Source of the DNA: an uncultured Planctomycetia bacterium
GTDB taxonomy: Bacteria > Omnitrophota > Gorgyraeia > Tantalellales > Tantalellaceae
Reading direction: 5' to 3'
DNA: 64,000 nucleotides
Assembly: GCA_964409365.1 (NCBI GenBank)
Contig: CAYPCX010000009.1
Coordinates: 10,390-74,389, forward strand
Shown here in pieces: positions 2 through 57,696 of this stretch; within the stretch, counting starts at the first letter, position 1, and each line of letters starts with the position of its first letter. The position numbers were made by a program, and so were the translations under genes. Under the pieces are notes generated by a model, which worked only from the letters and a program-made list of their open reading frames with translations, made no database searches and had not been told where the DNA came from.

Positions 2-427
2 GAATGTGACGACTCTACTGCCAGGCTGGCCGAGGATACGGGAAGCGTTATAGCCGGAGAGGGAGCCGTGCTCGTCTCGGGCGGGCGAAGCGGCGTTATG
101 GAAGCCGCGTGCAAAGGAGCGAAAGCCGCGGGAGGGATCACCGTAGGTATAATACCCGGAGAGGACAAGAAAGAAGCCAACGATTTTGTCGATATAGTGA
201 TAGCTACGGGTATGGGTTATTCGCGTAATGCCCTTGTGGCCGGCACAGCCGATATAGTGGTAGCTTTTCCCGGCAAATACGGCACGCTCTCGGAAATAGC
301 TTTCGCCCTTAACTCGGGGAAAAAAGTATACGGGCTGGGGACCTGGGATATACCCGGGGTGGTTAAGCTCGGCTCGCCGGATGAATTGAAAAAAGTGATC
401 AGGGAAGGGATGCGATGCCTGTCTTGA
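2..427 (+). CDS. LOG-like / TIGR00725-family Rossmann-fold nucleotide-binding protein, 5' end outside window
   Basis: Frame open from the window edge. GG(R)SGVMEAxxKGAxxAGG and PGxxGTLxE motifs fit the LOG/SLOG family. No start codon in the window. Confidence 0.6.
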   Translation, partial: ECDDSTARLAEDTGSVIAGEGAVLVSGGRSGVMEAACKGAKAAGGITVGIIPGEDKKEANDFVDIVIATGMGYSRNALVAGTADIVVAFPGKYGTLSEIAFALNSGKKVYGLGTWDIPGVVKLGSPDELKKVIREGMRCLS

Positions 428-933
428 CGGATTTCGATATTAAACTTTTTTATGAGATCAATGTGGGTTGCAGCAACAAGGTGCTGGATATGATAATGCC
501 GTGGGTTACCGAGATCGGGGGAGGGATAGCGCTTTTTGCCCTGGGTTTCGTGCTTGTGCTCATCGGCAGAAAACACGCCAGGATAACGGGGATACTGCTT
601 CTGGCGGGTCTTACCATGTCCTATTATTTCGCGAAACTCATAAAAGAATTTGTCGCAAGGCCGCGTCCCTTTATGGTCCTGGATGACATGAAAATGCTCC
701 TTACCGCGGACGGTTACTCATTTGTGTCGCACCATGCGACGACGGTCTTTATGGCGGCCTATATTCTTTCGAAGACTTACGGGAAATGGTACATTTTTTA
801 CACGTTGGCCGCGATCGTCGCTTTCTCAAGAGTGTATCTGGGGGTCCATTATCCTTTTGACGTGCTTGCGGGCGCTTTTTTAGGGACGGTCATAGGGGCC
901 ATATTGTTCCGGGCAACGGGAGAGGTCCGGTAA
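415..933 (+). CDS. PAP2-family membrane phosphatase
   Basis: KxxxxxxRP, SFxSxH and SRxxxxxHxxxD motifs plus several TM helices. The ATG overlaps the upstream gene stop. Confidence 0.75.
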   Translation: MPVLTDFDIKLFYEINVGCSNKVLDMIMPWVTEIGGGIALFALGFVLVLIGRKHARITGILLLAGLTMSYYFAKLIKEFVARPRPFMVLDDMKMLLTADGYSFVSHHATTVFMAAYILSKTYGKWYIFYTLAAIVAFSRVYLGVHYPFDVLAGAFLGTVIGAILFRATGEVR

Positions 934-952
934 AGCCCTGACAGGAGAGATC

Positions 953-1537
953 ATGATAGCTGTAGATGTCGTGTTGCTGCCTCCGCGGGAAGTGATGGAA
1001 AAGGCCATCGAGATAAACCGCCGCATCATAGACGCGGAGGGTAATGACATCGTTCTTGATATGGATAAATACATCCCCCATATTACCCTCGCTATGGGCT
1101 GTGTCGAGGAAAAAGACCTGGAAAGGGTGGACTTTATCCTGAATGACATAGCCACGAGTTTCCGTCCCGTCAGCATGAAGACAGTGCCTTCAAAAGGCGG
1201 CAAAGCGTGGATAAAGATCGACAAAACAAGAGATATCGAACTTCTGCACGAGATAGTGATGATAAGAATGCAGAAGTTCTTCAGCTACCGCGTGTCGACC
1301 GACATGATATGCCACGGCGAAAGGGAGGAGATAAACGACGTAACACGCGATTACATCAGGAAGTTCCCTACTGCTTCGAGTTTTGAGAACTACACTCCCC
1401 ATATTACCGTGGGTTCCGGGGAAACGGCCGTAGAAGTGGGATCTTTTGAGTTCACCTCGACCGAACTTGCCTTATGCCACCTTGGCAACTTCTGTACCTG
1501 CGGAAAGGTCCTCTTCTCGCACACGCTTTCAGGTTGA
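953..1537 (+). CDS. 2H phosphoesterase (LigT-like 2'-5' RNA ligase / cyclic phosphodiesterase family)
   Basis: Two H-x-T-x motifs about 100 aa apart (PHITLAMG and PHITVGSG). AGGAGA RBS. Confidence 0.6.
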   Translation: MIAVDVVLLPPREVMEKAIEINRRIIDAEGNDIVLDMDKYIPHITLAMGCVEEKDLERVDFILNDIATSFRPVSMKTVPSKGGKAWIKIDKTRDIELLHEIVMIRMQKFFSYRVSTDMICHGEREEINDVTRDYIRKFPTASSFENYTPHITVGSGETAVEVGSFEFTSTELALCHLGNFCTCGKVLFSHTLSG

Positions 1538-1647
1538 TCAGCTCAAATTCCAACCCCAGACCATCATAACAGCTTCAATTTAAAAAACTTATACAAGTGA
1601 TAATGTTTACATGATATATTAAGGTTTAAAATAGTTAGATTAACATA

Positions 1648-1676
1648 TTGAAAGCGTGGCGCATAAATGATATATT
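1648..1676 (+). promoter_or_regulatory. sigma70-like promoter upstream of the giant ORF (TTGAAA-17-TATATT)
   Basis: Hexamers read directly from an AT-rich 170-bp leader. The second ATGATATATTA direct repeat overlaps the -10. Confidence 0.4.
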
Positions 1677-1708
1677 ACATCATATGTTAAGTAAAAAAAA
1701 AGATATAT

Positions 1709-4700
1709 TTGGCGGCCAACATATATATAACTATGCGTAAATTATCAGGCAAAAGAATTATCAAAGTGATCTCTTTCTTGCTGGCTATTCTAATGGTCTG
1801 GCAGGGTGTGGTATGGGCGGATCCTGATATTTTCCGGGCAAATAACCTGCAGGTCCACACGCTGAGAAAAGAGAGTGACTTTTTCGCGGTAGCCGCCGGT
1901 TATCTTTCGGCCTTCCTTATCGATCTGGAAACGAGGGATGATATCCATAAGAATATCTTCCCCATGGAAGAGGAGGTGCGAAGGGAGCTCGCGAGATTGC
2001 TGGAAAGTGATGATATTCCCAAAACCTACAAAAGAAACCCGCCCACGATAGAAAGAGGGCCCTTTGGGATCGGAGAGTTCGTGATAGATGCCGGTGTGTA
2101 CAAGATCAGGTATTATGCCCCGGGTATTATCCAGAAACGTTACTTTGATGCTGACCCGTCCGATCCGGGAGCGTCTTATGATGTCCGTGAAGACAGGTGG
2201 GTGGGTAAAGGCAGGTATCTTCGCCGGCAGGTTTTCATAAAACGCAGCCCCGAGTCAGAGACTGTCCCATCGGTGGGCAAGATATTGGAAGAAGCGCTCA
2301 GGAAGAGATTTATTTACGAGAGGGTTGGATACCTGCGTGGACTTTGTCCCGGATTGTCCCAGAGAAAACTTGCGGATGAAGCTCGAGTAGAAACTAATAC
2401 GATATCCGAGATCGAAAAAGGGCATACAAAACATCCTACTAAGGATATCCTTAGGCAGATCGCCTTTGTTCTGGCGTACAAACTGCATGTGGATATGGAT
2501 GATCTTTTGGAAAAAGTGTTCCTGGTGTCGCCGAGGCCGACCGTAGCGGGAACGCCGGAGGAGAGACTGGCCGAAGTAAAGGAATTACCCTCCTTGGGTG
2601 AACGGATAGAATACCTGCGGGAAGCCCGGGGATGGTTGTGGCAGAGAGAACTCGCGAGGGAGACCGGGCTATTGGTCAAAAATATACATCTGATCGAAAT
2701 AGGAAAAATAAATAATCTTTCCCCGAAGACAAGCAGTAGGCTGGCCGAGGCCCTGGCGCCCGCGCTTGATATCAGCCCGGAAGAGCTTATCTCAGAAGTG
2801 TTTTTGCTGTCTACCGGCCAGATCGCAAAGGGCAACGCGGGTACGCTTTACCGGGAGTTGCTGGCCCAGGCGGAAAAAGGAAAAGCGGGATCTATGAGGT
2901 TTTATAAAAGGTGGAGGTTGCGAAAGGCGGCCCGGAATCTGAAAAAAAGGATAGAAAGTTCCGAGATAGGATCCAGAGAAAAAGAAAGGATGGCCAAGGC
3001 GATCGACACGTTTTTACGGGCGGATATTCTTGAATTCAAGCCCATAGTGTTATCGGACGAAGGAGTGGATGTTGATGACCAATTGCGTCAGTGCGGCTGG
3101 TGGTTGTTGGGATTCAATACGATAGAGAGTGAAGCGATTCAGTCAGGAGAGCCCGTAAGCGCTTTGAACGCGCTTCTAAAGGAGAAATTCCCGAATACCG
3201 TGGGGCTGTCGACCAGGATGCTGGATCTTATTGGGTTCAACAGGTTTAACTATGATGAGCCTCTCCTTCAGGAATATCTGTTGCATGAGATCATCTGTCC
3301 CGTTTTTGGGCATGCAAGGTCAAGAAAGATACAGGAGAAAATATTTTTTGAAGATAATTATAAAGGTATTCTGGGCGTGACGAAAGACGGACACAAAGAC
3401 GGCGAGCTGACCCTGATCCTTGAACGTGTTATCAAGGAAGAACTGGGGAATTTTCCTAAGGAAGTGGAAAAGGTCTCTTTTGAAGAAGAACTGGACGAGT
3501 TCAAAAAGCTCGGTTTCAGGAATGATGGGCCGCGAAGGGCCGCGCAGATCTACCGTGCTTGGATGTTAAGACAGTCTCGTATTTGCAGGCTTGAAAGGGG
3601 AGAAGACGGGAAGTGTCCGGAAGAAGTAGACAGGCTATCCAGATATATGAATGCCAAAATGAACTGGCTGTTGCAAATGGAGACGGCATGGTCGATGGCG
3701 AAAGATTTTTTGGCCGCGAGAAGTAAATCAAAAGGAACAAGGAAAGGGAGAAGGGATATTTTGGAGACATTATGGGAAGATGAAGAAAGATCCCCGACAA
3801 AACGGCTCCGCGGACGACAAACCCTGAAAAATGCCGTACAGGTCCTTAGAGTGGCATACATCCACATTATGCAGAATCTTGCCGGGACGCTGGACGCGGA
3901 GGTCTTCGATCTTATAAAGGAAGACCCCTATATCGCGAAAGGGAAAAATTTACTGGAACGTATTACCGGTAAGGATATAGAAATCGAAGAAACTGAGGGA
4001 ACAAAAGAAGCAACGGCGACAGCAGGATTTTCAGATGAGGCAACAACCCCTGAAGCGGAAGCAAAGGATATATGGGTCGGCATGAGCTTCAGGGAAAAAT
4101 TAAAATTTGTCATAGGCCATGTAAACTGGAGATCGGTGGGTAAAACGTTCGCTCTCGCGTTTCTTCTTTGCGGGGCCTTTCACCTGGCAGTTCCTTTGCT
4201 GATACCTCAAGCCTATATCTGGATCTTTGACCTGGTCGCTTTCGGCGTTCCTTTCGGGCTCTTCATATATATAATCATGAAGCACTTTAGCTGGAAAGGT
4301 GTGTTCATCGCTGTAGGTCTTTCGATCTTGCTGTCAATGCTGCTTCCTATACGCTGGCTCGGTCTTTCACTGGCGATAGTTATCATGCACCGGATGTGGA
4401 AGCAGAAGGGGAAAGAGGCATATGAATCCCCCGCCGGGCTCTGGGGGAGTGAAAAGGTTTTGGCTGAAAAGGAAAAGGATGAGGATGAAGCCGATGCCGA
4501 GGAGACACATACTGAAAAAGATAGTAAGGCGCAAGAGAAGGTAAAGAAGAAAAAGATCTCACGGGGTTTTCAAGGTAGACACCCGGACATTTATATTACG
4601 GATGACATTTTGACATTGATAGACAGGATAACGAAGCTCAGGTTTCCCAGACCCCAAGAAGGAGGAGAGGATAAATATAAACGTGCTGCAAAACTGGATA

Positions 4701-7165
4701 CGCGAACAGTGCTTGATAACCTATTCAGATTGGAGATCTCATCTGATACGATTCCCGGCCCCGCGTTGATGAAAGAGCTGCGTCCGCGGGTCGAGGAACA
4801 GATGGAAAGACTCGAAAGCGGGTTTGATCCCGAGACTTTTGAATCTACCGATCACGATGTCCAGGAAGCTTTGAGATTTCTGGATGAATGGGACGGAAAA
4901 AAAGCCGAGGAAGAGACCGCGGAAGCCCTGCATGAGGTGTCACGGGAAGTATCGAAGAGGCTTTTACAGTCGTCTGTATGGGAAGAGGAAAACAAGAAAG
5001 AAAAACAAGCCGTTTTGGACCTTATCGTTGAGCGGGTATTGGAGAATGCGCTGGATAATCTCATGGGCATGGAAGAGGAAGAGGAGTGGGAAACGGAGGA
5101 AAAGAAAAAGCAGAAGAAAGAAGCAAGGGAAACAGAAAGAAAAAAAGTCAAGTCGATCTGGGAAGAGAAAATGGCAATAATAAAGTTGCGCATTAGGCTT
5201 ATTACTGCGAGAGAGGAGGTGGAGTCCAAAGAAAAAGATCCATTAAAATCTCCGAGCGCAGGTGATTATTATTTTCTGGGCCGTAATGAATTTTTCTTTG
5301 AGGATCCTTGGAAGCCGAAGGCATCATCCCGGGAAAGGGCGTCTGAGAGCACATTTAAAAATGCGTTATTGAAAACACCGAACGCTGCCCCGTTGAAGAA
5401 AGATTATTATTTGACCTTTGGGGTGGTAAAGCATGTTTATGAGAAATGGAATGAAGCAAAAACAGCTTATGAGTCATGTCTGCGCGAGTTCGGCTTTGAT
5501 CCCGAGGAACTGGATAGCCTCGAAGTGGCGTTAGCCAGATTCCCATGGTGGGATGGCAGGTTGGGAGAGGGGTTAAGGTTATTCTACGAGTTAAGTGCTT
5601 TTCAAATGACGCTGAACAGGTCTCCGAAAGTGGTTAAAAATCTGGGTAAACTGGGCGAATTTAAAAAAGCTGGTAAAAAAGAGGACCTGTTAAAAATAGC
5701 CCTGACTGTGCTTCTTCTGGGAAAAAGTAAACAGAAGATCCCCATCGGCGGAGAAGAAGAGTCGGAAAATGACGGAGCGCCTTCGCCCCAGCGGGGTATC
5801 GGGGCGCTCGCGCGGGAAGACGGCCCCATACCCGACCACAGGCTCGTGAACGCACTTGTTAAGGTGCTTTTTGAAAAAGGCCTTTTTGAGACACAAGAGG
5901 AGGATGTATACCTTTTCGGGGACGATACGTCCGGGAATTTCGGGGATCTTTATAATGACTGTCTGGACGAAAACGGGCAGAGGAAGGTGAGGGATATTTT
6001 CGGGGACGAGTTTCAGAAAGATACGGGTATTCGCCTGACCGATACCCGGGTGCTGCTGGAAGTAGGGAAACTTCGGAATATCGAGGGACATACCGGTGTG
6101 GAGAATGGGATGATCTATATATGCAAGGGCTGGAAATGGGAATTGGATAGATTTGTGGAGCATGAAAGAGCGGCACTCAGTGAGCATCGGGAAAAAGCGC
6201 TGGAAATATACAATGAAGAGGGACATTCTTATGAAACCTGGAAAGACATCCCTGAAAGTGAGCGGGCCGATGCGGCTAATGCCTTCAGAAAGTGGCGAAA
6301 AGAAAAGACCGAAGAGTATAACCGTTTTGCCGGAGAAGTCCATGAAAACGCCCCACTGGTTCGTGTGGCGGATGAACGCGCATCGGCGCAAAAGACCCTT
6401 CCCGAACTTTTTGATTACCGGAGGATCAGGGGAAACGCGGAGTTACAGATAAAGCTTCTTGTGCAGGCCATGATCGAATGGGCGGAGAAAAATAAGACTA
6501 GGGGCAAAGATGATGATAGGCCTTGCGTTCTCGCGTTAGACCTGGAACTTACGGAGGGTCAGATAAAAGGCCTTTATGATAAGCTTTACGAAGCGCTGGG
6601 GCAGCTTCCCCACAACAATGAAGAACTGGAAGTTTTTCTTGATAATCTCAGCATAGTCAGCGGGAAGGGTCCTTCTTTAGCTGAAAGACTTCATAATATC
6701 AGTACTCTGGGGCAAGGCCGGGTGAGTCCGGAAAATATTATCGTCATAACGCCAAGTCCGAATATGGAACATTTTGACGGCATTAAGGACGGGAACAAAA
6801 AAGCCACGGTCGTGGGAATACACGCCAGAGGAGCCCCGGAAACCGAGTATGGATTCCCGGTGAACGAGACATATTTGCCGCTACCGGACATTATGCTTTT
6901 AGCGATAGCAAGGCACTTAGGTAAGAAAAGAGAACATCTGCTGTGTCTTTTAGTAAGGACGCCCGGGGCGTTAAGGGCCGATCAATTGGAAAGATTCAGA
7001 GAAGGCACATTGGACCCGGAAGAGATATACAGGGAGCATAAAGGCATATTTTCGAATGATCCCGGCAGCTTCATCATCGAGCTCATCCCGGACGCGATAA
7101 AGGTCGATCCGGGTGAAAGAACTGAATTGATAGAAAGAACGAATTATCTATTGGCCCAGGCGTAA
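1709..7165 (+). CDS. Giant 1818-aa multidomain protein: N-terminal signal/anchor, two XRE-type HTH domains, 4-TM block, long K/E-rich coiled-coil region and a large C-terminal part with no recognisable domain
   Basis: 5.46 kb uninterrupted ORF. HTH motifs near aa 201-270 and 297-368 (LSQRKLAxxAxVxxxTISxIEKG). Hydrophobic helices near aa 812-894. Alternative ATG start at 1733 gives MRKLSGKRIIKVISFLLAILMVWQGVVWA. Confidence 0.85.
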   Translation: MAANIYITMRKLSGKRIIKVISFLLAILMVWQGVVWADPDIFRANNLQVHTLRKESDFFAVAAGYLSAFLIDLETRDDIHKNIFPMEEEVRRELARLLESDDIPKTYKRNPPTIERGPFGIGEFVIDAGVYKIRYYAPGIIQKRYFDADPSDPGASYDVREDRWVGKGRYLRRQVFIKRSPESETVPSVGKILEEALRKRFIYERVGYLRGLCPGLSQRKLADEARVETNTISEIEKGHTKHPTKDILRQIAFVLAYKLHVDMDDLLEKVFLVSPRPTVAGTPEERLAEVKELPSLGERIEYLREARGWLWQRELARETGLLVKNIHLIEIGKINNLSPKTSSRLAEALAPALDISPEELISEVFLLSTGQIAKGNAGTLYRELLAQAEKGKAGSMRFYKRWRLRKAARNLKKRIESSEIGSREKERMAKAIDTFLRADILEFKPIVLSDEGVDVDDQLRQCGWWLLGFNTIESEAIQSGEPVSALNALLKEKFPNTVGLSTRMLDLIGFNRFNYDEPLLQEYLLHEIICPVFGHARSRKIQEKIFFEDNYKGILGVTKDGHKDGELTLILERVIKEELGNFPKEVEKVSFEEELDEFKKLGFRNDGPRRAAQIYRAWMLRQSRICRLERGEDGKCPEEVDRLSRYMNAKMNWLLQMETAWSMAKDFLAARSKSKGTRKGRRDILETLWEDEERSPTKRLRGRQTLKNAVQVLRVAYIHIMQNLAGTLDAEVFDLIKEDPYIAKGKNLLERITGKDIEIEETEGTKEATATAGFSDEATTPEAEAKDIWVGMSFREKLKFVIGHVNWRSVGKTFALAFLLCGAFHLAVPLLIPQAYIWIFDLVAFGVPFGLFIYIIMKHFSWKGVFIAVGLSILLSMLLPIRWLGLSLAIVIMHRMWKQKGKEAYESPAGLWGSEKVLAEKEKDEDEADAEETHTEKDSKAQEKVKKKKISRGFQGRHPDIYITDDILTLIDRITKLRFPRPQEGGEDKYKRAAKLDTRTVLDNLFRLEISSDTIPGPALMKELRPRVEEQMERLESGFDPETFESTDHDVQEALRFLDEWDGKKAEEETAEALHEVSREVSKRLLQSSVWEEENKKEKQAVLDLIVERVLENALDNLMGMEEEEEWETEEKKKQKKEARETERKKVKSIWEEKMAIIKLRIRLITAREEVESKEKDPLKSPSAGDYYFLGRNEFFFEDPWKPKASSRERASESTFKNALLKTPNAAPLKKDYYLTFGVVKHVYEKWNEAKTAYESCLREFGFDPEELDSLEVALARFPWWDGRLGEGLRLFYELSAFQMTLNRSPKVVKNLGKLGEFKKAGKKEDLLKIALTVLLLGKSKQKIPIGGEEESENDGAPSPQRGIGALAREDGPIPDHRLVNALVKVLFEKGLFETQEEDVYLFGDDTSGNFGDLYNDCLDENGQRKVRDIFGDEFQKDTGIRLTDTRVLLEVGKLRNIEGHTGVENGMIYICKGWKWELDRFVEHERAALSEHREKALEIYNEEGHSYETWKDIPESERADAANAFRKWRKEKTEEYNRFAGEVHENAPLVRVADERASAQKTLPELFDYRRIRGNAELQIKLLVQAMIEWAEKNKTRGKDDDRPCVLALDLELTEGQIKGLYDKLYEALGQLPHNNEELEVFLDNLSIVSGKGPSLAERLHNISTLGQGRVSPENIIVITPSPNMEHFDGIKDGNKKATVVGIHARGAPETEYGFPVNETYLPLPDIMLLAIARHLGKKREHLLCLLVRTPGALRADQLERFREGTLDPEEIYREHKGIFSNDPGSFIIELIPDAIKVDPGERTELIERTNYLLAQA

Positions 7166-7171
7166 CCTTAT

Positions 7172-8611
7172 TTACACATCGGGTGTGTTACACACCCGAT
7201 GTGTAAGGGCGGTCATGAGGGCTTGGGCTTTGTGCAGGGTTTCCTGGTATTCCGCTTCCGGGTCAGAGTCGGCGACTATACCGCCCCCGGCTTGGAAGTA
7301 CACGTCTTTTCCCTTCATTATCATTGTCCGGATGGCTATATTGAGTTCCATCGTGTCATGGAAGCTTATGTAACCGATCGCTCCCGTGTAAACATTCCGT
7401 TTTGAGGGTTCCAGCTCGTCGATTATCTCCATCGCGCGTATCTTGGGACATCCGGTGATGGACCCTCCCGGAAAAGCGGCTTTTACGATATCGATGAGGC
7501 TCGCGCCGGCGTCCGCTTCTCCCTTTACAACGGATATCGTCTGGTGGACGGTGGGGTAAGTCTCGAGGCGTTTATGCTGGATGACCTTGACTGAGCCCGG
7601 TATGGCGACTTTACCCAGGTCGTTCCTTTCCAGGTCCACTATCATGGCAAGTTCCGAGGCGTCTTTCGGGTCGTTCTTGAGGTCATCCTTAAGTTTTTTG
7701 TCCTCTTTAGCGTTCTTCCCCCTGGGGCGGGTACCTTTCATCGGCCGGGTCTCTATCATTCTGTCCGAGACCTTCAGAAAAAGTTCGGGCGATGAAGATA
7801 TTATTTTCGCACCTTCAAAATTCAGATAAGCGCTGAAAGGCGCGGGGTTTATCTCATTCAGCCTCAGGTAGAGTTCATAGGCCCCGTAAGGCCACTTTGT
7901 CTTGAATCTCTGTGACAGGCACGCCTGGTAGATATCGCCCGCGCGGATGTAATCTATGGTCTTCTTTACGGCTTTGACATAACCGGGTCTGGTGAAATTT
8001 GACTCGGGGAAGGGCTTGAAGTTTTTCTTTCCGGCCTTTGGAGGCCGGCCTTCCGGAAGAGGGGAACTTATCATTCTTTTTATCCGATCTATGAGTTTTT
8101 TTGCTTCTTCACGGCCCGCGGTCTCGGGTCCGATGACGCTTATTTTAACGCGGCCGGGGTCCTGGCGGTCATGGATGAGTATAGCCCGGTAAAAGACGAA
8201 ATATAGGTCGGGGAGCAAGAGGTCGTCTTCGGCTTTTTGCGGCAGCTTTTCCAGGACGTCCTTAAGGTCGTAGGAGAGGTATCCGATGCCGCCGGAAGTG
8301 AAAGGCAGGGAAAATAGCTTTTTCATCCTGTAAGTCCTGATGACCGAGTCAAGGTATTCAAAGGGGTCGCCTTTAAAGCGGAGCCGGTGACCGTCGAACC
8401 TGATATTTATGTTCTTGCCTTTAGAGGTCAGAACAAGGAAGGGCTCTATGCCTATGAAGGAAAATCTCGCAACATCGGTTTCCATGGAGCTGTTCAAGAA
8501 GGAAGCTTCCGGAGAGTTTTCGAAATGCCTGAACAGTTCTTCCGGCGGCGAGTTAAGTTCCGCCGTTTCGATAAAGGGTTCGGATCCGATCTTAGGGAGA
8601 CACTTTTCCAT
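7172..8611 (-). CDS. pabB: Aminodeoxychorismate/anthranilate synthase component I (chorismate-binding enzyme)
   Basis: Chorismate-binding C-terminal region (IETRPMKGTRPRG, AAFPGGSITGCPK, YTGAIGY). A GATase gene lies immediately upstream on the same strand and no other trp genes are present, so PabB is favoured over TrpE. Confidence 0.65.
   Translation of the reverse strand: MEKCLPKIGSEPFIETAELNSPPEELFRHFENSPEASFLNSSMETDVARFSFIGIEPFLVLTSKGKNINIRFDGHRLRFKGDPFEYLDSVIRTYRMKKLFSLPFTSGGIGYLSYDLKDVLEKLPQKAEDDLLLPDLYFVFYRAILIHDRQDPGRVKISVIGPETAGREEAKKLIDRIKRMISSPLPEGRPPKAGKKNFKPFPESNFTRPGYVKAVKKTIDYIRAGDIYQACLSQRFKTKWPYGAYELYLRLNEINPAPFSAYLNFEGAKIISSSPELFLKVSDRMIETRPMKGTRPRGKNAKEDKKLKDDLKNDPKDASELAMIVDLERNDLGKVAIPGSVKVIQHKRLETYPTVHQTISVVKGEADAGASLIDIVKAAFPGGSITGCPKIRAMEIIDELEPSKRNVYTGAIGYISFHDTMELNIAIRTMIMKGKDVYFQAGGGIVADSDPEAEYQETLHKAQALMTALTHRVCNTPDV
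7174..7204. terminator. Perfect 14-bp-stem palindrome between convergent genes; likely bidirectional terminator
   Basis: ACACATCGGGTGTG-TTA-CACACCCGATGTGT read directly. It overlaps the stop codon of the minus-strand gene. Confidence 0.5.
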
Positions 8612-8612
8612 T

Positions 8613-9170
8613 TTACATCTTTATAAAGTTGCGAATTATCCTCTTGCCGTTTTCCGTGAGGAACGATTCCGGATGGAATTGGAGGCCTATTATGGGCCAT
8701 TTCTTATGCTGTACTCCCATAACGAGGTTCTTTTTCGTCCATGCCGTGGTTTCCAGGCAGATGGGGATGTCGACCGCTTCAAGGGAATGGTACCTTGCGG
8801 CGGGAAAGGGAGAGGGGAGCCCCTTTAAGATGCCATTGCCGTTATGATATACGGGCGATGTGCTCCCGTGGACGATCTTATTCACCTGGACGATCTTACC
8901 GCCGAATACTTTCGCTATGCACTGGTGACCGAGGCAGATCCCCAGTATAGGGGTGTCGGGACCGAACCTCTTTATGATATCGTTCGAGATACCGGCCTCG
9001 TCCGGTGTCTTAGGTCCCGGGGAGATCACTATTTTTCGGGGCTTGAGGTCACGGATCTCTTTCAGTGTTATGCCGTCGTTCCTTTTTACGAGCAGGCTCA
9101 CGCCCTGTTCGGCGAAGGCCTGATACAGGTTGTAAGTGAACGAGTCGTAGTTGTCGATGAGTAAATACAT
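8613..9170 (-). CDS. pabA: Class-I glutamine amidotransferase component II (PabA/TrpG type)
   Basis: MYLLIDNYDSFTYNL start. GICLGHQ catalytic Cys motif. HPES near the C-terminus. Start re-picked at the internal Met. Confidence 0.75.
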   Translation of the reverse strand: MYLLIDNYDSFTYNLYQAFAEQGVSLLVKRNDGITLKEIRDLKPRKIVISPGPKTPDEAGISNDIIKRFGPDTPILGICLGHQCIAKVFGGKIVQVNKIVHGSTSPVYHNGNGILKGLPSPFPAARYHSLEAVDIPICLETTAWTKKNLVMGVQHKKWPIIGLQFHPESFLTENGKRIIRNFIKM

Positions 9171-9181
9171 GTTAAGAATAT

Positions 9182-9236
9182 ATTCTGGGGACATGTCTGG
9201 TCGTTTACATGGTGTTTACACAGACGTGTCCCCAGA
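9182..9236. terminator. 16-bp-stem hairpin between ispH stop and pabA start
   Basis: TCTGGGGACATGTCTG...CAGACGTGTCCCCAGA with one G-U position. Weak U tract. Position uncertain by about 1 nt. Confidence 0.35.
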
Positions 9237-9239
9237 ACC

Positions 9240-10091
9240 TCAGTTTTGTTTTTTGCTGATTTTCCGCAATTTTCTCACGATTTCCTTAGTGATATAGTCC
9301 GGGGTCGAGGCGCCCGCCATTATGCCGGCCTTTTTGGTGCCTTTGAACCAGGCCTTTTTCAGGTCTTTGGCCGATTCTATCCAGTGGGTATTCCTGTTCA
9401 TGCCCCTGGATATCTGGTACAGGCGTTTCGTGTTCGCGCTTGTCTTTGAACCGACTATAAGCACTATATCGTTCTTCCCGGGCAGCGATCTTATCTCCTG
9501 CTGTTTGACCCGGGTGGTCCGGCAGGTGGTGTCGTACAGTTTTACCTTTGGTATGATCTTTTTCAAGCGTTCCATGATCCCCCGGATGTTGTCCGAGCTC
9601 TGTGTCGATTGTGTTATAACAGCGGCCTTTTTGATACGCGCCAATCTTTTTACAGGTATCCTCTTCGAAGATTCAATGGTTATAGGTCTGGTCTTAAGCT
9701 GGCCGGCGATACCTTTTACTTCGTCATGGTTGATGTCGCCGATTATGATCATCTTGTTGTTTTTCTCGAGCCGTTTGGCTATTTTGTAAATGTCTTTCAC
9801 TTTGGGGCAGGTAGCGTCGACCACCTTATATCCGCATTTTTTTGCCTTATCGAAAACGCTTTTCGGGGCCCCGTGCGCTCTTATGAGGAGTGTCGAGCCT
9901 TTGTCCCGGGCCGTCAGGTTCTTTATCTTTTTTACGCCTTTTTCCGAAAGCTCCCTGACTACGAAGGTGTTATGGACGATATCCCCGAGCACGTAGACGT
10001 TATTTTTGCTTCCGGCCAGGTCCTTGCTTATGTTTATCGCGCGCCTGACACCGAAACAGAAACCCGAACTTTTAGCGATATTTATTTTCAT
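9240..10091 (-). CDS. ispH: 4-hydroxy-3-methylbut-2-enyl diphosphate reductase
   Basis: SGFCFGVRRAI, GDIVHN, ATCPKV and TTCRTT motifs typical of IspH/LytB. Confidence 0.9.
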   Translation of the reverse strand: MKINIAKSSGFCFGVRRAINISKDLAGSKNNVYVLGDIVHNTFVVRELSEKGVKKIKNLTARDKGSTLLIRAHGAPKSVFDKAKKCGYKVVDATCPKVKDIYKIAKRLEKNNKMIIIGDINHDEVKGIAGQLKTRPITIESSKRIPVKRLARIKKAAVITQSTQSSDNIRGIMERLKKIIPKVKLYDTTCRTTRVKQQEIRSLPGKNDIVLIVGSKTSANTKRLYQISRGMNRNTHWIESAKDLKKAWFKGTKKAGIMAGASTPDYITKEIVRKLRKISKKQN

Positions 10092-11149
10092 GTGTCCATA
10101 CCGGAAAAGAGTTTTTGAGAAAGGACTTTCAGCGCCTTTTTGTGCCCTTTTTTCATTTTGAGAGAGCGGAGAAGGGGGTCCGTTTTATCAAGAAGGCCGG
10201 ATATCGTGTCCAGGCAATGGTCCAGGGCTCCGGTCGTGATAACCAGCTTCCTGAACTTCGTGAGGTCCGTGTAGGTCTTTTTCTTTTTTTCCATGAGGTT
10301 TTTTAAGGTTTTCCTGCCACTTTTGTCCAGTTTACTGTAAGCGGACCATACGAGTAGTGTCTTTTTGGATTCGTCCAGGTCCGAAAGGACAGGTTTACCT
10401 ATTTTTTTGCTTGTGGAGAACACGTCAAGCAGGTCATCATATATCTGAAAGGCCTGTCCCAGCAGGATACCCAGCTTTGAAAGTTTTTTTATCTCTTTCC
10501 TGTCGGCCCCTGCCAGCACGGCCCCCATGACAAGGGGACATTCAAACGTATATTTGGCCGTTTTGAGGGTATATGTCAGGAATATGGACTTTCTCGATAT
10601 TCTGTCGACGCTCTCCATGCCGCTGGTAACGTCCAGGAACTCTCCGGCCGCGGTGGAAACCGCCGCCTCTGCCAGAAGTTTTAAGGCCTCTTCTTTGCGT
10701 GCCGGGGTTTCGTCCGAGGAAAGCAAGGCATCTATCGCCAGAGCGAACATCGCGTCCCCGGCGACTATGCTCAGGTCGGGGCCCGTTTTGCTTTTTCCTG
10801 GAAGACCGAGTTTCTTGTTAAAGACCTTATGCAGTGTCGGCTTCCCGCGTCTGATGGCGGAGTCGTCGATCACGTCGTCATGCGCCAGGAAAAAGTCGTG
10901 CATGAGTTCCAGCGAAAGGGCGCTCCTTAGGAGCTTTTTACGGGAAAAACTTTTTCTTTTCGTATATCCGAGATAGCTTATAAGAAAAAGAAGGGGGCGT
11001 ATCTTTTTGCCCTTGCGCCGCAGGAAGTCCTTTATGCCCGCGTAAAGCAGGCCCGATGCCCGGTCAAGGCCGTGCTTTTTATTGGCATACGGCAGGAAAT
11101 ACGCGAGTTCCCTGTCTATGTCTTTTTTGAGTTTTTCCAGCATGACCAT
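10088..11149 (-). CDS. Polyprenyl diphosphate synthase (FPP/GGPP synthase family)
   Basis: Two DDxxD motifs (AHDDVIDD and IYDDLLD). Overlaps ispH by 4 nt, so likely one operon. Confidence 0.8.
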   Translation of the reverse strand: MVMLEKLKKDIDRELAYFLPYANKKHGLDRASGLLYAGIKDFLRRKGKKIRPLLFLISYLGYTKRKSFSRKKLLRSALSLELMHDFFLAHDDVIDDSAIRRGKPTLHKVFNKKLGLPGKSKTGPDLSIVAGDAMFALAIDALLSSDETPARKEEALKLLAEAAVSTAAGEFLDVTSGMESVDRISRKSIFLTYTLKTAKYTFECPLVMGAVLAGADRKEIKKLSKLGILLGQAFQIYDDLLDVFSTSKKIGKPVLSDLDESKKTLLVWSAYSKLDKSGRKTLKNLMEKKKKTYTDLTKFRKLVITTGALDHCLDTISGLLDKTDPLLRSLKMKKGHKKALKVLSQKLFSGMDT

Positions 11150-11288
11150 GTTCTTTCTATATGAGATCCCTCGCTATGCTCAGGATAAATTCGGTCAACA
11201 GGCTTACGTCGTTTCACTCCGTAAGCCTGGACCTCATTTACTCTAACATAACTAATAACGGGCGGCAATAAAATTCAGGGTCAAGGGA

Positions 11289-11557
11289 GTCAGGTCTCAG
11301 GTGTCAGGTTTCAGGTGGCAGGTAACAGAAAACAGAAGACAGAAGGAAGTGTCAGAGTGTCACCGCTCGCTACGCTCGCTAGTGTCATAGTGTCAGTTTC
11401 AGGCGACTTGCGACTTGCGACTGGTGACTGGTGACTTGCGACTGGTTACTGGTTACTGGTTACTGGTTACTGGTTACTTTATCCTTGATACTCGACACTT
11501 TTTCCTTTTTCCTTTATCCTTGTTACTTGTTACTTGCTACTTGACACTTTATATGCT
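11289..11557. repeat. Heptamer-phased tandem-repeat blocks filling the divergent intergenic region
   Basis: Consecutive 7-bp unit arrays: TCAGGTN x5, ACAGAAG x3, AGTGTCA x4, GCGACTT/GTGACTG/GTTACTG x9, TTTATCC/TTTTTCC, TTGTTAC x3. Confidence 0.8.
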
Positions 11558-11582
11558 ATTTTCATTTAGTAAGGCAGGCCTT

Positions 11583-12941
11583 ATGAAAAAACTGATCGAT
11601 ATAGTTCCCGAACAGTACCGCGAAGAGCTCTTGAAAAAACGCACCTCGCTTATCAAGAACAGGGTGCTTCTTCTGTGCATTCTGGCTATCGCTATATATT
11701 TTGCCGTCGCCGCAATATATGTCCTGATAAATCCCGAAGAGTTCAGGACCCTCGATATCGTTGCCGGCCTGGCACTTGCGGCGGGCGCCGCGGCCGTGAT
11801 CTTTCTTAACAGGAAGTCCAGGACGCTGGTCGCGGCTAAATTCAACGCGTATCTTTTCATAGTTTTTCTTTTGGCTCTTGCCGTGAAAATGGGGATAGCT
11901 TATGCCGATGACGCCGAGACCAGCGCAACGACCCTGGTCTTTATCCTGTTCCTGGTATCTTCCACCATACCCTGGACGCCTTTTGAGATCGTATTGATAG
12001 GGGTGATGCATTCTGTCGCTTACACGGCCACGTACTTTATTGTCAATTATGTTCCCGGCCTGGAAATGGAACCTTTTACTATCAGGGATTTCCTGGACGG
12101 CCTGATCTTCATAGTTATGGTCCTGGTGTTGTGCGTTGTGATCCGCAGGAAGGACGCCGTGATGTATACCGAGGATTTCGTCCTCCTTAAAAGAGTCGAA
12201 TCTCAGAAAGAGCAGATGCATGACGAGCTGGAGTTCGCGACGAGGATACAAAAAACCCTTGTCCCGGGCCCCCTGGGCAATGACAGGGTGGATATAGCCG
12301 TGGATTATCTCCCGGTCTATTATATGGGCGGGGATTACGCGAAGTACAACGTGCTCGATGAGTACAGGATAATATTCATCATGTGCGATGTCACCGGCCA
12401 CGGCGTTCCGGCGGCTCTTTTGGTCAACAGGATACATGCCGAATTCGAGCGGCTGGCGAAGGAAGGCAGGGAACCCGGAGCGCTTTTGAACGAGCTTAAC
12501 GGCTTCATAAAAGAGGATTTTGAAGGGACTGACATGTACCTCACCGCTTTCTGCGGTCTGCTGGATTTCAGTAAAAAGGAGCTTTTGTATTCGAACTACG
12601 GGCACCCGCCGCAGTATCTTTACCGCGCGTCGTTATCATCTGTACAGGCCATGCCGGCGCAGACCGCGCTCTTAGGGCTTCCTTTCGATGATACGAACAT
12701 TTACCAGGACAGTATCCCGTTCGGCAAAGGGGACAGGGTGCTGCTTTTCACCGACGGGGTCACCGAGACGTTCAACGACAGGAAAGAAGAATTCGGCACT
12801 GGAAGAGTGGAAGACCTTCTTGCCAGGGAGCACGCGATCCCGGCGGGCGAGTTCAACCAGAAGCTTATCGGCGAGTTGAACGCCTTCAAGAGCGGAGACT
12901 TCAGGGACGACATATTCATCATGAGTGTCGCTATAAAATAG
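11583..12941 (+). CDS. Membrane-anchored PP2C-type (SpoIIE/RsbU family) serine phosphatase
   Basis: N-terminal multi-TM region then a PP2C core (CDVTGHGVPAALL, LFTDGVTE). Start re-picked at ATG 11583. The track ORF start at 11415 only reads through the repeat array. Confidence 0.75.
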   Translation: MKKLIDIVPEQYREELLKKRTSLIKNRVLLLCILAIAIYFAVAAIYVLINPEEFRTLDIVAGLALAAGAAAVIFLNRKSRTLVAAKFNAYLFIVFLLALAVKMGIAYADDAETSATTLVFILFLVSSTIPWTPFEIVLIGVMHSVAYTATYFIVNYVPGLEMEPFTIRDFLDGLIFIVMVLVLCVVIRRKDAVMYTEDFVLLKRVESQKEQMHDELEFATRIQKTLVPGPLGNDRVDIAVDYLPVYYMGGDYAKYNVLDEYRIIFIMCDVTGHGVPAALLVNRIHAEFERLAKEGREPGALLNELNGFIKEDFEGTDMYLTAFCGLLDFSKKELLYSNYGHPPQYLYRASLSSVQAMPAQTALLGLPFDDTNIYQDSIPFGKGDRVLLFTDGVTETFNDRKEEFGTGRVEDLLAREHAIPAGEFNQKLIGELNAFKSGDFRDDIFIMSVAIK

Positions 12942-12969
12942 TTGAAAACGTCCGTTTAAGTTGTATAAT
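12942..12969 (+). promoter_or_regulatory. sigma70-like promoter TTGAAA-16-TATAAT for the small basic protein gene
   Basis: Hexamers read directly. Followed by GAGGAGG RBS. Confidence 0.5.
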
Positions 12970-12995
12970 ATCTCAGCGATCGCATAGAGGAGGAT

Positions 12996-13232: not shown

Positions 13233-13233
13233 C

Positions 13234-37553: not shown

Positions 37554-37585
37554 TTCAGGTGTCAGGTCTCAGGAGAGCCGGGACG

Positions 37586-38389: not shown

Positions 38390-38478
38390 AGCCCTACCTT
38401 GTTTTTAAACCAATCCTGTTATATACTTAAACTGCTCGAAATATGCGAAAAGGTCTGTCTAAACAAGGAGAGCATATT

Positions 38479-56376: not shown

Positions 56377-56402
56377 ATATACGATAAAAAGGGAGAAGGG
56401 AT

Positions 56403-57569: not shown

Positions 57570-57595
57570 TACTTTAAAATAAAGAAGTTATAATA

Positions 57596-57630: not shown

Positions 57631-57658
57631 ACATAATTTCCACAACCCCTGAAAACTA

Positions 57659-57687: not shown

Positions 57688-57696
57688 AACTCTGCT

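What the first reader, a model, noticed from the sequence alone, without database searches (positions are those of the whole stretch)
1540..7165. Orphan 1818-aa multidomain protein with dual XRE HTH motifs and a mid-protein 4-TM block
A single 5.46-kb ORF with a good sigma70-like promoter encodes several parts. There is an N-terminal signal-peptide-like segment (VWA before D). Two consecutive XRE-type HTH motifs follow (aa 201-270 and 297-368). Then come about 440 aa of unknown sequence, four TM helices (aa 812-894), a long K/E-rich coiled-coil stretch, and about 600 C-terminal residues with no recognisable domain. A cleavable signal peptide immediately before DNA-binding HTH motifs is topologically paradoxical. 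I recognise no enzymatic motif. It could be a membrane-tethered regulator of RodZ-like logic expanded to giant size, or a new class of envelope-spanning protein.
Basis: seen in the sequence. Interest (0 to 1): 0.6.

Follow-up and report, generated by a model that had tools for sequence, protein, structure and literature searches.

The report
Omnitrophota capped modular membrane protein
This is a real 1,810-residue membrane-protein gene from an uncultivated Omnitrophota bacterium, and it is not an orphan: it belongs to an unnamed family in which a conserved export-type leader plus N-terminal domain and a conserved C-terminal domain bracket interchangeable modules, here uniquely a pair of DNA-binding-type domains.

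Summary
The ORF is real and intact. The likely start is ATG 1733 and the stop ends at 7165, giving 1,810 aa. The DNA is identical in three independent assemblies. Both XRE HTH domains, the signal-peptide-like leader and the mid-protein TM block are confirmed.

"Orphan" is wrong. An exhaustive HMMER scan found 62 relatives of 76-5,873 aa, and every relative that carries an organism name is from Candidatus Omnitrophota. The family has two conserved "caps". The N-cap is a leader ending WQxVVWA|(D/N)PD plus a domain of about 150 aa. The C-cap is an alpha/beta domain of about 220-250 aa at the extreme C-terminus, ending in an almost invariant Ala. Between the caps the content varies: kinases, phosphatases, GNAT, methyltransferases, enolase, PGK, iPGM, GDH, TPR and TM domains.

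The window protein has the core architecture N-cap, MID (invariant HExxCx4H), four TM segments as two hairpins, a TPR-containing helical domain, an X domain, C-cap. Its tandem HTH pair is a clean insertion of about 200 aa that all 10 aligned relatives lack, two of them positional orthologs.

N-cap, MID, X and C-cap match nothing in Pfam, NCBIfam or PDB. The leader-versus-cytoplasmic-domain paradox applies to the whole family and is unresolved: the leader points to export, while charge bias and payload types point to the cytoplasm.

The parts
1608..1621 (+). 14-nt direct repeat, copy 1 (TACATGATATATTA); candidate operator
   Evidence: The motif TAMATGATATATTA occurs only twice in the 64 kb, both times here (0.05 expected). 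The pattern was derived post hoc.
1648..1676 (+). Sigma-70-like promoter: TTGAAA, 17 nt, TG-TATATT
   Evidence: 10 of 12 matches, the best site in the region, inside the AT-rich spacer.
1664..1677 (+). 14-nt direct repeat, copy 2 (TAAATGATATATTA), overlapping the -10 hexamer. A degenerate third copy lies at 1676-1689.
   Evidence: The motif is absent upstream of the HTH-less ortholog in L002.
1733..7165 (+). Coding sequence, 1810 aa plus stop. The longest ORF starts at TTG 1709.
1733..1819 (+). Leader, aa 1-29: an n-region with 5 K/R, a 12-residue h-region, the c-region QGVVWA, and a predicted signal peptidase I site between A29 and D30
   Evidence: in 24 of 24 family leaders position -1 is A or S and position -2 is W; -3 is V, A or S in 22 of 24; +2 is P in 22 of 24; the leader is the best-conserved part of the N module.
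1820..2257 (+). N-cap domain, aa 30-175: the DPDIF..LQ motif, two helices, then a beta lobe containing 'IRYY' and 'RQV'
   Evidence: 29 proteins; alignment; model of homolog P0004.
2258..2857 (+). Lineage-specific insertion, aa 176-375, holding two tandem XRE HTH units. The Pfam cores are at nt 2351-2464 and 2597-2791.
   Evidence: Pfam; a clean gap in all 10 homologs; the two units are 34% identical over 71 aa, E=3e-9.
2858..4102 (+). MID domain, aa 376-790: 'WLLGFNT', 'DGEL' and long C-terminal helices
   Evidence: No hit in Pfam, PDB or Foldseek.
3284..3313 (+). Motif H518-E519-x-x-C522-x4-H527 on a predicted helix; candidate metal site
   Evidence: H, C and H are invariant and E is nearly invariant in the family alignments; helix in the model.
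4121..4399 (+). TM block, aa 797-889: four hydrophobic segments read as two helical hairpins (A-B and C-D), with K/R-rich flanks
   Evidence: The block is conserved in 15 proteins. The A-B hairpin is duplicated in P0026.
4418..5602 (+). POST helical domain, aa 896-1290, with variable K/E-rich linkers and two TPR-like repeats (aa ~1175-1252, nt 5255-5488)
   Evidence: 14 proteins; the family profile matches consensus TPR structures at E=5e-13.
5603..6397 (+). X domain, aa 1291-1555: 'PDHRLVNA', 'GHTG', 'HE..A', 'Y.TW'
   Evidence: It is shared with P0028 and P0052 (two copies each) and with P0034. No PDB hit.
6398..7162 (+). C-cap domain, aa 1556-1810, alpha/beta, ending ...LLAQA-COOH
   Evidence: present in 53 of 62 relatives, always at the extreme C-terminus; the terminal Ala is invariant in 32 of 32 aligned sequences; model with pLDDT 79; no structural match.

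Best explanation
SHOWN.
- One intact gene of an Omnitrophota chromosome encodes a 1,810-aa protein of an unnamed, phylum-restricted family.
- The family is defined by two end caps. The first is a conserved Sec-type leader plus N-cap domain. The second is a 220-250-aa alpha/beta C-cap at the very C-terminus that ends in Ala.
- The interior between the caps is interchangeable.
- This protein belongs to the core sub-family: N-cap, MID (HExxCx4H), four TM segments, TPR-containing POST, payload, C-cap.
- It sits in a conserved chromosomal slot (PAP2 ... trpE/trpG/ispH) that holds different family members in related genomes.
- Its two XRE HTH domains are a tandemly duplicated cassette of about 200 aa. 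The cassette is inserted in the linker between N-cap and MID and is absent from every detected relative.

INFERRED.
- The caps act as targeting or docking modules. The logic resembles that of cargo carrying a signal peptide plus a conserved C-terminal sorting domain, as in T9SS cargo and autotransporters.
- The leader takes the N-terminal arm to or through the inner membrane.
- The TM block forms two helical hairpins that hold the protein in the membrane, with both long arms on the same side.
- The HTH pair and the X domain are payload.

Which side the arms face is not settled. My estimates are about 45% extracytoplasmic, about 40% cytoplasmic and about 15% split. If extracytoplasmic, the leader is functional and the HTH pair is a payload that binds nucleic acid or another ligand, not a classical repressor.
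For: Integrity of the ORF:
- Frame-0 coding signal is best in all tiles.
- The DNA is identical in three assemblies.

Family:
- 62 relatives were found, for example P0002 at 6.6e-57 and P0003 at 1.5e-55.
- The module map shows N in 29 proteins, MID and TM in 15 each, POST in 14 and CT in 53.
- The terminal Ala is invariant in 32 of 32 aligned C-caps, and 27 of 29 N-bearing proteins end in Ala.
- Leader statistics: position -1 is A/S and -2 is W in 24 of 24; -3 is small in 22 of 24.
- The leader is more conserved than the rest of the N module: identity 0.39, and 0.51 for the c-region, against 0.21.

Taxon:
- All 4 GTDB loci and all named cluster members are Omnitrophota.

Synteny:
- TrpE, TrpG, IspH and polyprenyl synthase are 59-68% identical to the L002 locus, while the giant protein is only 30-34% identical.
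- The same slot is occupied in L007 and L010.

Insertion:
- The alignment shows one clean gap of about 200 columns in 10 of 10 homologs.
- The two HTH units are paralogous.

Payload diversity.

No known family for N-cap, MID, X or C-cap.

The hairpin reading: A-B is duplicated as a unit in P0026, and both outer flanks are K/R-rich.
Against: - The targeting or docking role of the caps is inferred only from their position and conservation. No partner, secretion system or sortase-like gene was found next to the gene.
- The extracytoplasmic reading conflicts with the positive-inside rule at the TM block. In the window protein about 9 K/R lie on the flanks and the B-C loop, against about 1 on the A-B and C-D loops. 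The same pattern holds across the 15 proteins listed.
- It also conflicts with ATP-, NAD- or SAM-dependent payloads that keep their catalytic motifs, and with the HTH domains themselves.
- Some C-cap proteins appear to lack a leader. However, at least one such gene call (P0006) was simply started too late.
- The C-cap is alpha/beta. It is not a beta-sandwich or a beta-barrel like known C-terminal sorting domains.
Confidence: 0.6

Rival explanations
1. Cytoplasm-facing, membrane-tethered XRE DNA binder. Both arms lie in the cytoplasm and the hairpins dip into the inner membrane from inside. The tandem HTH pair binds DNA, possibly the 14-nt repeats that overlap the gene's own -10. The gene is thereby regulated, or the chromosome is tethered to the membrane platform. 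The leader serves only for membrane targeting or association.
For: - The flanks of the TM block and the B-C loop are K/R-rich in the window protein and its relatives.
- In P0009 an S2P-like (Peptidase_M50) TM domain follows POST. Its pre-TM flank is K/R-rich and its HExxH lies at the C-terminal end of its own TM segment, which fits a cytoplasmic POST. This rests on sequence, the Pfam hit and inference.
- Payloads with intact catalytic motifs include kinase HRDxKxxN, LMW-PTP CX5R and GDH GGGKG.
- Both HTH units are canonical and score above threshold.
- The motif TAMATGATATATTA occurs only twice in the 64 kb, both in this promoter, one copy over the -10. It is absent upstream of the HTH-less ortholog.
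Against: - The leader has every feature of a cleaved Sec signal peptide and is universal in N-bearing members.
- An N-in hydrophobic leader forces what follows to the outside, and no further hydrophobic segment exists between aa 30 and 790.
- RodZ membership fails.
- The repeat motif was defined post hoc in AT-rich DNA.
Confidence: 0.3
2. Split-topology transmembrane transducer. N-cap, HTH and MID are outside. Only three segments truly span the membrane, because segment D is short. POST, X and C-cap are in the cytoplasm.
For: - The leader points to export of the N-terminal arm.
- The post-D flank is the most K/R-rich of the flanks, with a mean of about 7 in 33 aa.
- Segment D fails the 19-residue hydropathy threshold.
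- Enzymatic payloads lie on the C-terminal side in P0004 and P0009.
Against: - The pre-A flank and the B-C loop are also K/R-rich, which this topology would place outside.
- In leader-only members such as P0018 and P0050, the C-cap must lie on the same side as the N-cap. The C-cap would therefore have to work on both sides of the membrane.
- The HTH pair would still be outside.
Confidence: 0.12
3. MID is a zincin-like metallopeptidase. The HTH plus MID then form an ImmA/IrrE-type module, that is an XRE domain coupled to a protease. This is not exclusive of the other explanations.
For: - H518, C522 and H527 are invariant and E519 is nearly invariant.
- The motif lies on a predicted helix that follows a mixed beta sheet.
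Against: - The motif is HExxC, not HExxH.
- There is no hit to Peptidase_M78 or any other peptidase model, even at E<=10 across 11 members.
- No zincin appears among the Foldseek hits.
- MID exists without any HTH in all relatives.
Confidence: 0.1
4. Artefact: separate genes fused by a frameshift or assembly error, a pseudogene, or a true orphan.
For: The codon-usage score is lower than in housekeeping neighbours: about 0.13 against 0.28-0.46 log2 units per codon.
Against: - The same frame is best throughout.
- Three assemblies give identical DNA.
- The same module order from leader to C-cap occurs in full-length relatives from other samples.
Confidence: 0.02

Closest known systems
Long or 'giant' multi-domain SP+TM proteins of Omnitrophota (West-Roberts et al. 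2023, bioRxiv 10.1101/2023.11.21.568195; 2026 preprint 10.64898/2026.06.07.730766)
   Same: - Same phylum.
- Same paradoxical mix: a signal-peptide-like N-terminus, TM helices and cytoplasm-type domains (methyltransferase, HATPase, GNAT, kinases, sugar-metabolism enzymes).
- Fast-evolving genes in variable loci.
   Different: - Far smaller: 1.8 kAA against 10-147 kAA.
- No dockerin, TSP3, C39 or SecA domains.
- The passages of those papers that I searched do not mention a conserved N-cap/C-cap bracket, the MID-TM-POST core or HTH payloads.
T9SS cargo proteins (signal peptide plus conserved C-terminal domain) and T5SS autotransporters (established knowledge)
   Same: The architecture follows the same logic: an N-terminal Sec leader, variable passenger domains and one conserved module at the extreme C-terminus shared by many otherwise unrelated proteins.
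   Different: - The C-cap is a 220-250-aa alpha/beta domain. It is neither an 80-100-aa beta sandwich nor a beta barrel.
- No Pfam or NCBIfam CTD or autotransporter model matches.
- There is also a conserved N-terminal domain.
- The payloads are cytoplasm-type.
- No secretion genes lie nearby.
RodZ and other membrane-tethered HTH proteins (established knowledge)
   Same: An XRE-type HTH sits on a membrane-anchored protein.
   Different: - RodZ has one N-terminal cytoplasmic HTH, one TM and a periplasmic DUF4115.
- Here the HTH pair lies 175 aa behind a signal-peptide-like leader and 420 aa before a four-segment TM block.
- HTH_25 scores below its cutoff and there is no DUF4115.
ImmA/IrrE (COG2856) XRE-associated metallopeptidases (established knowledge)
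   Same: An XRE HTH sits next to a domain carrying an HE-containing putative metal motif.
   Different: - The motif is HExxC, not HExxH.
- No model matches.
- The MID domain predates the HTH insertion.
Chlamydial Inc proteins with a bilobed hydrophobic hairpin (established knowledge; PVC superphylum)
   Same: Tight pairs of hydrophobic helices have very short connecting loops and both flanks on one side.
   Different: - No sequence similarity was tested or is known.
- Inc proteins are T3SS substrates without Sec leaders.
- Here there are two hairpins in a far larger protein.

Membership tests
XRE-family HTH (Pfam HTH_3 / HTH_19 / HTH_31) | Score above the curated gathering threshold; canonical helix-turn-helix core | tested here: met
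   HTH_3 38.4 bits (cutoff 23), HTH_19 35.4 bits (cutoff 30.2) and HTH_31 33.9 bits (cutoff 27), each with two stretches. The best PDB sequence matches were an XRE-type repressor and a designed HTH protein, both weak at E~0.1.
RodZ | N-terminal cytoplasmic HTH of the HTH_25 type | tested here: not met
   HTH_25 E=0.13, 12.6 bits against a cutoff of 24.6. The HTH units start at about aa 196, behind a hydrophobic leader.
RodZ | Single TM directly after the HTH, then a periplasmic DUF4115 domain | tested here: not met
   no DUF4115 hit. The next hydrophobic segment lies about 430 aa downstream and has four parts.
ImmA/IrrE metallopeptidase (Peptidase_M78) | HExxH zinc motif and a match to the family model | tested here: not met
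   The motif is HEIIC. No peptidase model matches at E<=10 in 11 members.
Sec / signal peptidase I signal peptide | A basic n-region, an h-region of 8-15 residues, a polar c-region, and small residues at -3 and -1 | tested here: met
   by manual rule. The n-region has 5 K/R, the h-region has 12 residues, the c-region is QGVVWA, position -3 is V and -1 is A. Position -1 is A/S in 24 of 24 family leaders and -3 is small in 22 of 24. No SignalP or DeepTMHMM run was possible.
TPR repeats | 34-residue helix-turn-helix repeats matching TPR profiles | tested here: inconclusive
   The family profile A4 matches consensus TPR structures at E=5e-13 over two repeats, and relatives hit TPR_16. The window protein alone gives no Pfam TPR hit at E<=1.
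Protein-kinase-like fold (for N-cap beta lobe plus MID) | Significant structural or profile similarity to kinase or APH folds; catalytic HxD..N and DFG motifs | tested here: not met
   Kinase-like folds top two Foldseek lists, but only at E>=0.09, probability <=0.28 and TM<=0.15. hhalign against a family kinase payload gives probability 0.13.
T9SS C-terminal sorting domain / autotransporter beta domain | A beta-sandwich CTD or a beta barrel at the C-terminus, matching curated models | tested here: not met
   The C-cap model is a five-strand alpha/beta domain. There is no Pfam or NCBIfam match and no PDB fold match.
Omnitrophota Archaeovorin / dockerin-type giant proteins | Length above 10 kAA with dockerin, TSP3, C39 peptidase or SecA-like domains; a T2SS-like locus upstream | tested here: not met
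   The protein is 1.8 kAA and only HTH domains are detected. The neighbours are housekeeping genes.
Unnamed Omnitrophota 'N-cap / C-cap' family (defined here) | A leader ending W-Q-x-V-V-W-A|(D/N)-P-D, followed by the N-cap domain | tested here: met
   The motif occurs once in the six-frame translation of the window, at this gene.
Unnamed Omnitrophota 'N-cap / C-cap' family (defined here) | An alpha/beta domain of about 220-250 aa at the extreme C-terminus, ending in Ala | tested here: met
   The window protein ends ...LLAQA.
Unnamed Omnitrophota 'N-cap / C-cap' family, core sub-family | MID with HExxCx4H, a four-segment TM block with PVN, WSWK and PxPW landmarks, and POST with a TPR pair, in that order | tested here: met
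   The PVN landmark is degenerate in the window protein (PLLIPQ).

The most novel reading that the evidence does not exclude
The N-cap (leader plus conserved domain) and the C-cap (alpha/beta domain with an obligatory C-terminal Ala) together mark substrates of a phylum-specific sorting, display or secretion route. This route would carry cytoplasm-type enzymes across the inner membrane of these ultra-small, probably episymbiotic or predatory bacteria. Such enzymes include kinases, phosphatases, acetyl- and methyltransferases, deaminases, glycolytic enzymes and, here, a tandem XRE HTH cassette. The HTH pair would then be an extracytoplasmic or prey-directed nucleic-acid-binding payload, and cassette swapping between the caps would generate effector diversity at a conserved chromosomal hot spot.
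Probability: 0.3. Interest if true: 0.85.

Novelty: new variant of a known kind. Interest (0 to 1): 0.6.

Why it matters
Omnitrophota are abundant, uncultivated, ultra-small bacteria. The function and even the sidedness of their very long multi-domain proteins are open questions.

This 1.8-kAA protein is a tractable, small example of that problem, and the analysis adds three things:
- A concrete family definition. Two conserved caps, none of whose modules are in Pfam, NCBIfam or PDB, can be used to pull out and classify such proteins, including members of 3-6 kAA.
- A natural experiment. One lineage inserted a DNA-binding cassette between N-cap and MID, in the arm directly downstream of the leader. 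Determining where that cassette ends up would settle the topology of the whole family.
- Evidence that the PAP2-trpE slot is a hot spot where family genes with different payloads replace each other while the neighbours stay 59-73% identical.

If the caps are sorting signals, this would be a new protein-export logic. If the arms are cytoplasmic, it is a new kind of membrane-tethered scaffold or regulator.

Tried and rejected
1. Word-indexed homolog search: the full protein found only itself. A tile of aa 370-800 and the C-cap alignment found nothing, not even the query. Yet relatives are in that same collection.
2. A genome scan with the whole protein found nothing. A3 worked.
4. PADLOC, PHROGs and NCBIfam returned only HTH hits.
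5. PDB sequence searches with the protein and with profiles A1, A4 and A8 returned only the TPR pair.
7. The kinase-like lead was rejected by hhalign.
8. A Tat leader was rejected: the twin-arginine positions are not conserved (inspection).
9. Internal repeats or paralogs in the window: none.
10. A leaderless core member (P0006) as evidence for cytoplasmic arms was rejected. The leader is encoded in frame upstream of the called start.
11. Payload enzymes as the cell's housekeeping copies is unlikely. The iPGM payload of P0043 is only 20-27% identical to the window's own iPGM, and the enolase payload is divergent.

Full report
**1. The observation**

The window holds one long ORF, 1709..7165 on the + strand (1818 codons from TTG). 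An ATG at 1733 gives MRKLSGKR... and is the likelier start, so I number residues from it (1810 aa). Many genes in this window lack a Shine-Dalgarno sequence, so the absence of one here says nothing.

A codon-usage log-likelihood was trained on 17 Pfam-supported genes of the window. It is highest in frame 0 for all 18 tiles of 100 codons. It is weaker than in housekeeping genes, about 0.13 against 0.28-0.46. Nothing points to a frameshift fusion.

The same protein is on record from JGI, ENA and Logan assemblies. Its DNA and the upstream kilobase are identical in all three.

The AT-rich spacer carries TTGAAA-17-TG-TATATT at 1648-1676. This is the best site in the region, but promoter-like sites overall are not above chance.

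Pfam confirms two XRE HTH domains above the gathering thresholds. Hydropathy confirms the N-terminal hydrophobic segment and a block at aa ~797-889.

**2. Not an orphan**

The word-indexed search found only the protein itself. It later failed even on inputs that must match, so I discount those negatives.

The exhaustive HMMER scan of aa 611-1810 against 1.84 billion representatives gave 62 hits. Of these, 35 are at E<=1e-10 and 7 at E<=1e-30, and lengths run from 76 to 5,873 aa.

A local iterative module map shows:
- N (aa 1-195) in 29 proteins.
- HTH (aa 196-369) in the query only.
- MID (aa 370-790) in 15 proteins.
- TM (aa 791-895) in 15 proteins.
- POST (aa 896-1290) in 14 proteins.
- X (aa 1291-1555) in 4 proteins.
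- CT (aa 1556-1810) in 53 proteins, always at the extreme C-terminus.

The last residue is Ala in 32 of 32 aligned C-caps and in 27 of 29 N-bearing proteins.

All four hits in species-representative genomes are Candidatus Omnitrophota MAGs. Every cluster member that carries a name is also Omnitrophota, including Ca. Tantalella remota.

**3. The caps**

The leader has a textbook Sec / signal peptidase I layout:
- An n-region of about 10 residues with 2-5 K/R in complete leaders and almost no acidic residue (one in 2 of 24).
- A 12-residue h-region.
- A c-region Q-G/S-V-V-W-A.

Across 24 family leaders, position -1 is A or S in 24, -3 is V, A or S in 22, -2 is W in 24, and +2 is P in 22. The leader is followed by DPDIF.R..LQP..FF.

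Unusually, the leader is the best-conserved part of the N module. Pairwise identity is 0.39, and 0.51 for the c-region, against 0.21 for the rest. The motif occurs exactly once in the six-frame translation of the window.

An apparently leaderless core member (P0006) has the leader in frame just upstream of its called start.

An AlphaFold model of the homolog P0004 (aa 1-505, 11-sequence alignment, pLDDT 80.4) shows:
- The leader as a free helix.
- A conserved but disordered stretch (aa 29-54).
- Two helices.
- A five-strand beta lobe.
- MID as a mixed alpha/beta unit followed by long helices.

The C-cap model (32 sequences, pLDDT 79, pTM 0.78) is a five-strand alpha/beta domain.

No member of either alignment matches any Pfam family consistently, even at E<=10. 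NCBIfam, PADLOC and PHROGs see only the HTHs. Profile searches of PDB sequences find only two TPR-like repeats in POST.

**4. The core and the insertion**

In the alignment of N+MID from ten relatives plus the query, the query's aa ~176-375 form one clean block of about 200 columns. It lies between the end of the N-cap ('RQVLI') and 'GxIAxG', and all ten relatives are gapped there.

The two HTH units are 34% identical over 71 ungapped residues (E=3e-9), and both end in VFL[VL]S. This indicates a tandem duplication.

MID has an invariant H518, C522 and H527 and a nearly invariant E519 (HExxCx4H) on a predicted helix. R531, Q534, N542, Y543, D556 and G557 are also invariant. This looks like a metal site, but no peptidase or other model matches.

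Weak kinase-like Foldseek hits recur in two libraries. They are not supported by hhalign, which gives probability 0.13.

X is a domain of about 210 aa with invariant GH, H, Y.W, R, Y and H positions. It is present twice in P0028 and P0052 and once in P0034, and has no known relative.

**5. Payloads**

Between or next to the caps, relatives carry the following:
- TPR.
- Glu/Leu/Phe/Val dehydrogenase.
- A Peptidase_M50-like TM domain.
- LMW phosphotyrosine phosphatase.
- Protein kinases.
- HATPase_c.
- GNAT.
- SAM methyltransferases, including DOT1-like.
- Enolase (P0018 is leader-N-cap, enolase, C-cap).
- PGK.
- iPGM.
- Amylo-1,6-glucosidase.
- Alpha-amylase.
- Carbamoyltransferase.
- Cytidine / MafB19-type deaminase.
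- Beta-CASP.
- PMT_2.

Several payloads keep their catalytic motifs: kinase HRDIKPAN/DLG/APE, PTP CX5R(S), and GDH GGGKG with GxGxxG.

The payloads are divergent extra copies rather than housekeeping genes. The iPGM payload is 20-27% identical to the window's own iPGM, and the enolase has degenerate motifs.

This domain repertoire matches what two preprints report for much longer Omnitrophota proteins. Those preprints also report that 39% of such proteins are predicted 'SP+TM'. The passages I searched did not mention the caps.

**6. Genomic context**

The neighbours are ordinary chromosomal genes:
- Upstream: PAP2 and a LigT-like gene.
- Downstream: trpE, trpG, ispH and polyprenyl synthase on the other strand, then a SpoIIE-type phosphatase and a PRK-GT4 fusion.

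The same block occurs in three related genomes:
- An Omnitrophota MAG (L002/L003). The neighbours are 59-68% identical. The trpE-adjacent gene has the same core architecture without HTH and is 30-34% identical to the query. Two more large genes lie in the slot, one of them an N..CT member.
- A Logan contig (L007). TrpE is 63% identical. The slot holds a kinase...C-cap protein of at least 2388 aa plus the enolase member.
- A JGI contig (L010). PAP2, LigT and P0006 are followed by the same operon.

So the slot is a hot spot where family genes with different interiors replace one another and evolve far faster than their neighbours. Among the three positional orthologs, only the window's gene has the HTH cassette.

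**7. Topology: the unresolved core**

The TM block reads as two hairpins. A and B are about 20 residues each and are joined by PVN..T. C and D are about 17 and about 15 residues and are joined by PxPW. In P0026 the A-B unit is duplicated as a whole.

The pre-A flank, the B-C loop (K.WSWK) and the post-D flank are K/R-rich in the window protein and its relatives. In the window protein that is about 9 K/R, against about 1 on the two tight loops. By the positive-inside rule both long arms would be cytoplasmic.

The leader says the opposite for the N-terminal arm. No other hydrophobic segment lies between aa 30 and 790.

Leader-only members (P0018, P0032, P0050, P0062) put the C-cap on the N-cap side, so the caps probably share a compartment.

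I weigh the evidence as follows:
- For export: a canonical, universally conserved leader.
- Against export: the charge bias, nucleotide-dependent payloads and the HTH itself.

This gives roughly 45% both arms outside, 40% both inside and 15% split. I could not run SignalP or DeepTMHMM.

**8. Mechanism**

Shown: family membership, module order, the insertional origin of the HTH pair, and the conserved slot.

Inferred:
- The caps are targeting or docking modules. The logic resembles cargo with a signal peptide plus a conserved C-terminal sorting domain, although the C-cap fold and the lack of model hits exclude membership in the T9SS or T5SS families.
- The hairpins anchor the protein in the membrane.
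- HTH and X are payload.

If the arms are cytoplasmic, the HTH pair most simply binds DNA. A candidate target is the 14-nt repeat TAMATGATATATTA. It is present only twice in the 64 kb, both times in this promoter, and one copy lies over the -10. It is absent upstream of the HTH-less ortholog. The motif was derived post hoc in AT-rich DNA, so it is only a lead.

**9. Verdict**

The anatomy is confirmed. 'Orphan' is refuted. The RodZ-like reading fails as membership and stays open as a mechanism. The protein is a new variant within the known phenomenon of Omnitrophota long membrane-associated multi-domain proteins. It exposes a previously unnamed cap-bracketed family and a sharp, testable topology paradox.

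Noticed in passing
window 1608-1621, 1664-1677, 1676-1689: A 14-nt direct repeat, TA(C/A)ATGATATATTA, occurs only in the giant gene's promoter (2 exact matches to the degenerate motif in 64 kb; 0.05 expected). One copy overlaps the -10 hexamer and a third, degenerate copy abuts it. It may be an operator, or it may be AT-rich chance.
   Followed up: partly
window 415-15144; L002/L003, L007, L010: The block PAP2-(LigT)-[family gene(s)]-trpE-trpG-ispH-polyprenyl synthase-SpoIIE-PRK/GT4 is conserved in related Omnitrophota contigs. The number and architecture of family genes in the slot differ (1 here, 2-3 elsewhere). In L010 the trp/isp operon lies on the same strand as the giant gene and in reversed order.
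   Followed up: yes
L007 7369-9987 (P0018): An 872-aa protein consists of the family leader and N-cap, a divergent enolase and the C-cap. Other members carry PGK and iPGM domains, so three consecutive lower-glycolysis enzymes appear as payloads of one family.
   Followed up: partly
window 42371-44005: A stand-alone, canonical iPGM is encoded in the window. It is only 20-27% identical to the iPGM payload of family member P0043. The payload copies are therefore not the housekeeping enzymes.
   Followed up: yes
P0011, P0019, P0033 (aa ~215-340); P0002, P0004, P0005 payload regions: These TM-rich segments carry EExxF/K, FxxxH and HxxxN motifs reminiscent of CPBP/Abi intramembrane proteases. Pfam did not report them at the thresholds used.
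   Followed up: no
window 56000-64000: G+C drops from about 0.50-0.53 to 0.39-0.43. The genes there encode polysaccharide functions: a Wzz/GNVR tyrosine-kinase-type protein, a Wzy_C O-antigen ligase-like protein and a GT1 glycosyltransferase. This is a typical variable surface-polysaccharide cluster.
   Followed up: partly
window 53947-55485: A ComEC-type competence channel (Competence + DUF4131) is encoded. The organism may therefore take up DNA through its periplasm, which is relevant if the HTH pair proves to be extracytoplasmic.
   Followed up: no
window 11415-12941 and 40404-42317: There are two SpoIIE/PP2C-type phosphatases, the second fused to a CHASE2 sensor domain. Two FecR-domain proteins lie at 37358-39333.
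   Followed up: no
window 953-1537: A LigT / 2H-phosphoesterase-like protein lies immediately upstream of the giant gene and has a weak hit to the anti-CBASS Acb1 model (E=6e-4, below cutoff). It is conserved at this position in L010.
   Followed up: no
window 13234-15144: A 636-aa protein fuses a phosphoribulokinase/uridine-kinase-like P-loop domain to a GT4 glycosyltransferase. It is conserved in the syntenic loci.
   Followed up: no
tool behaviour (against 29, 82): The word-indexed protein search returned no hit for a tile of the query or for the C-cap alignment, although the query and its relatives are in that collection. Negatives from that tool on K/E-rich or divergent queries should not be read as absence.
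   Followed up: yes
L010 2638-3000: The public gene call for P0006 starts 121 codons too late. The upstream in-frame sequence encodes the family leader (MIKMTSKITVKIISVLVSVLLIWQGVVWADPDIF...). 'Leaderless' family members in databases may often be start-site miscalls.
   Followed up: yes
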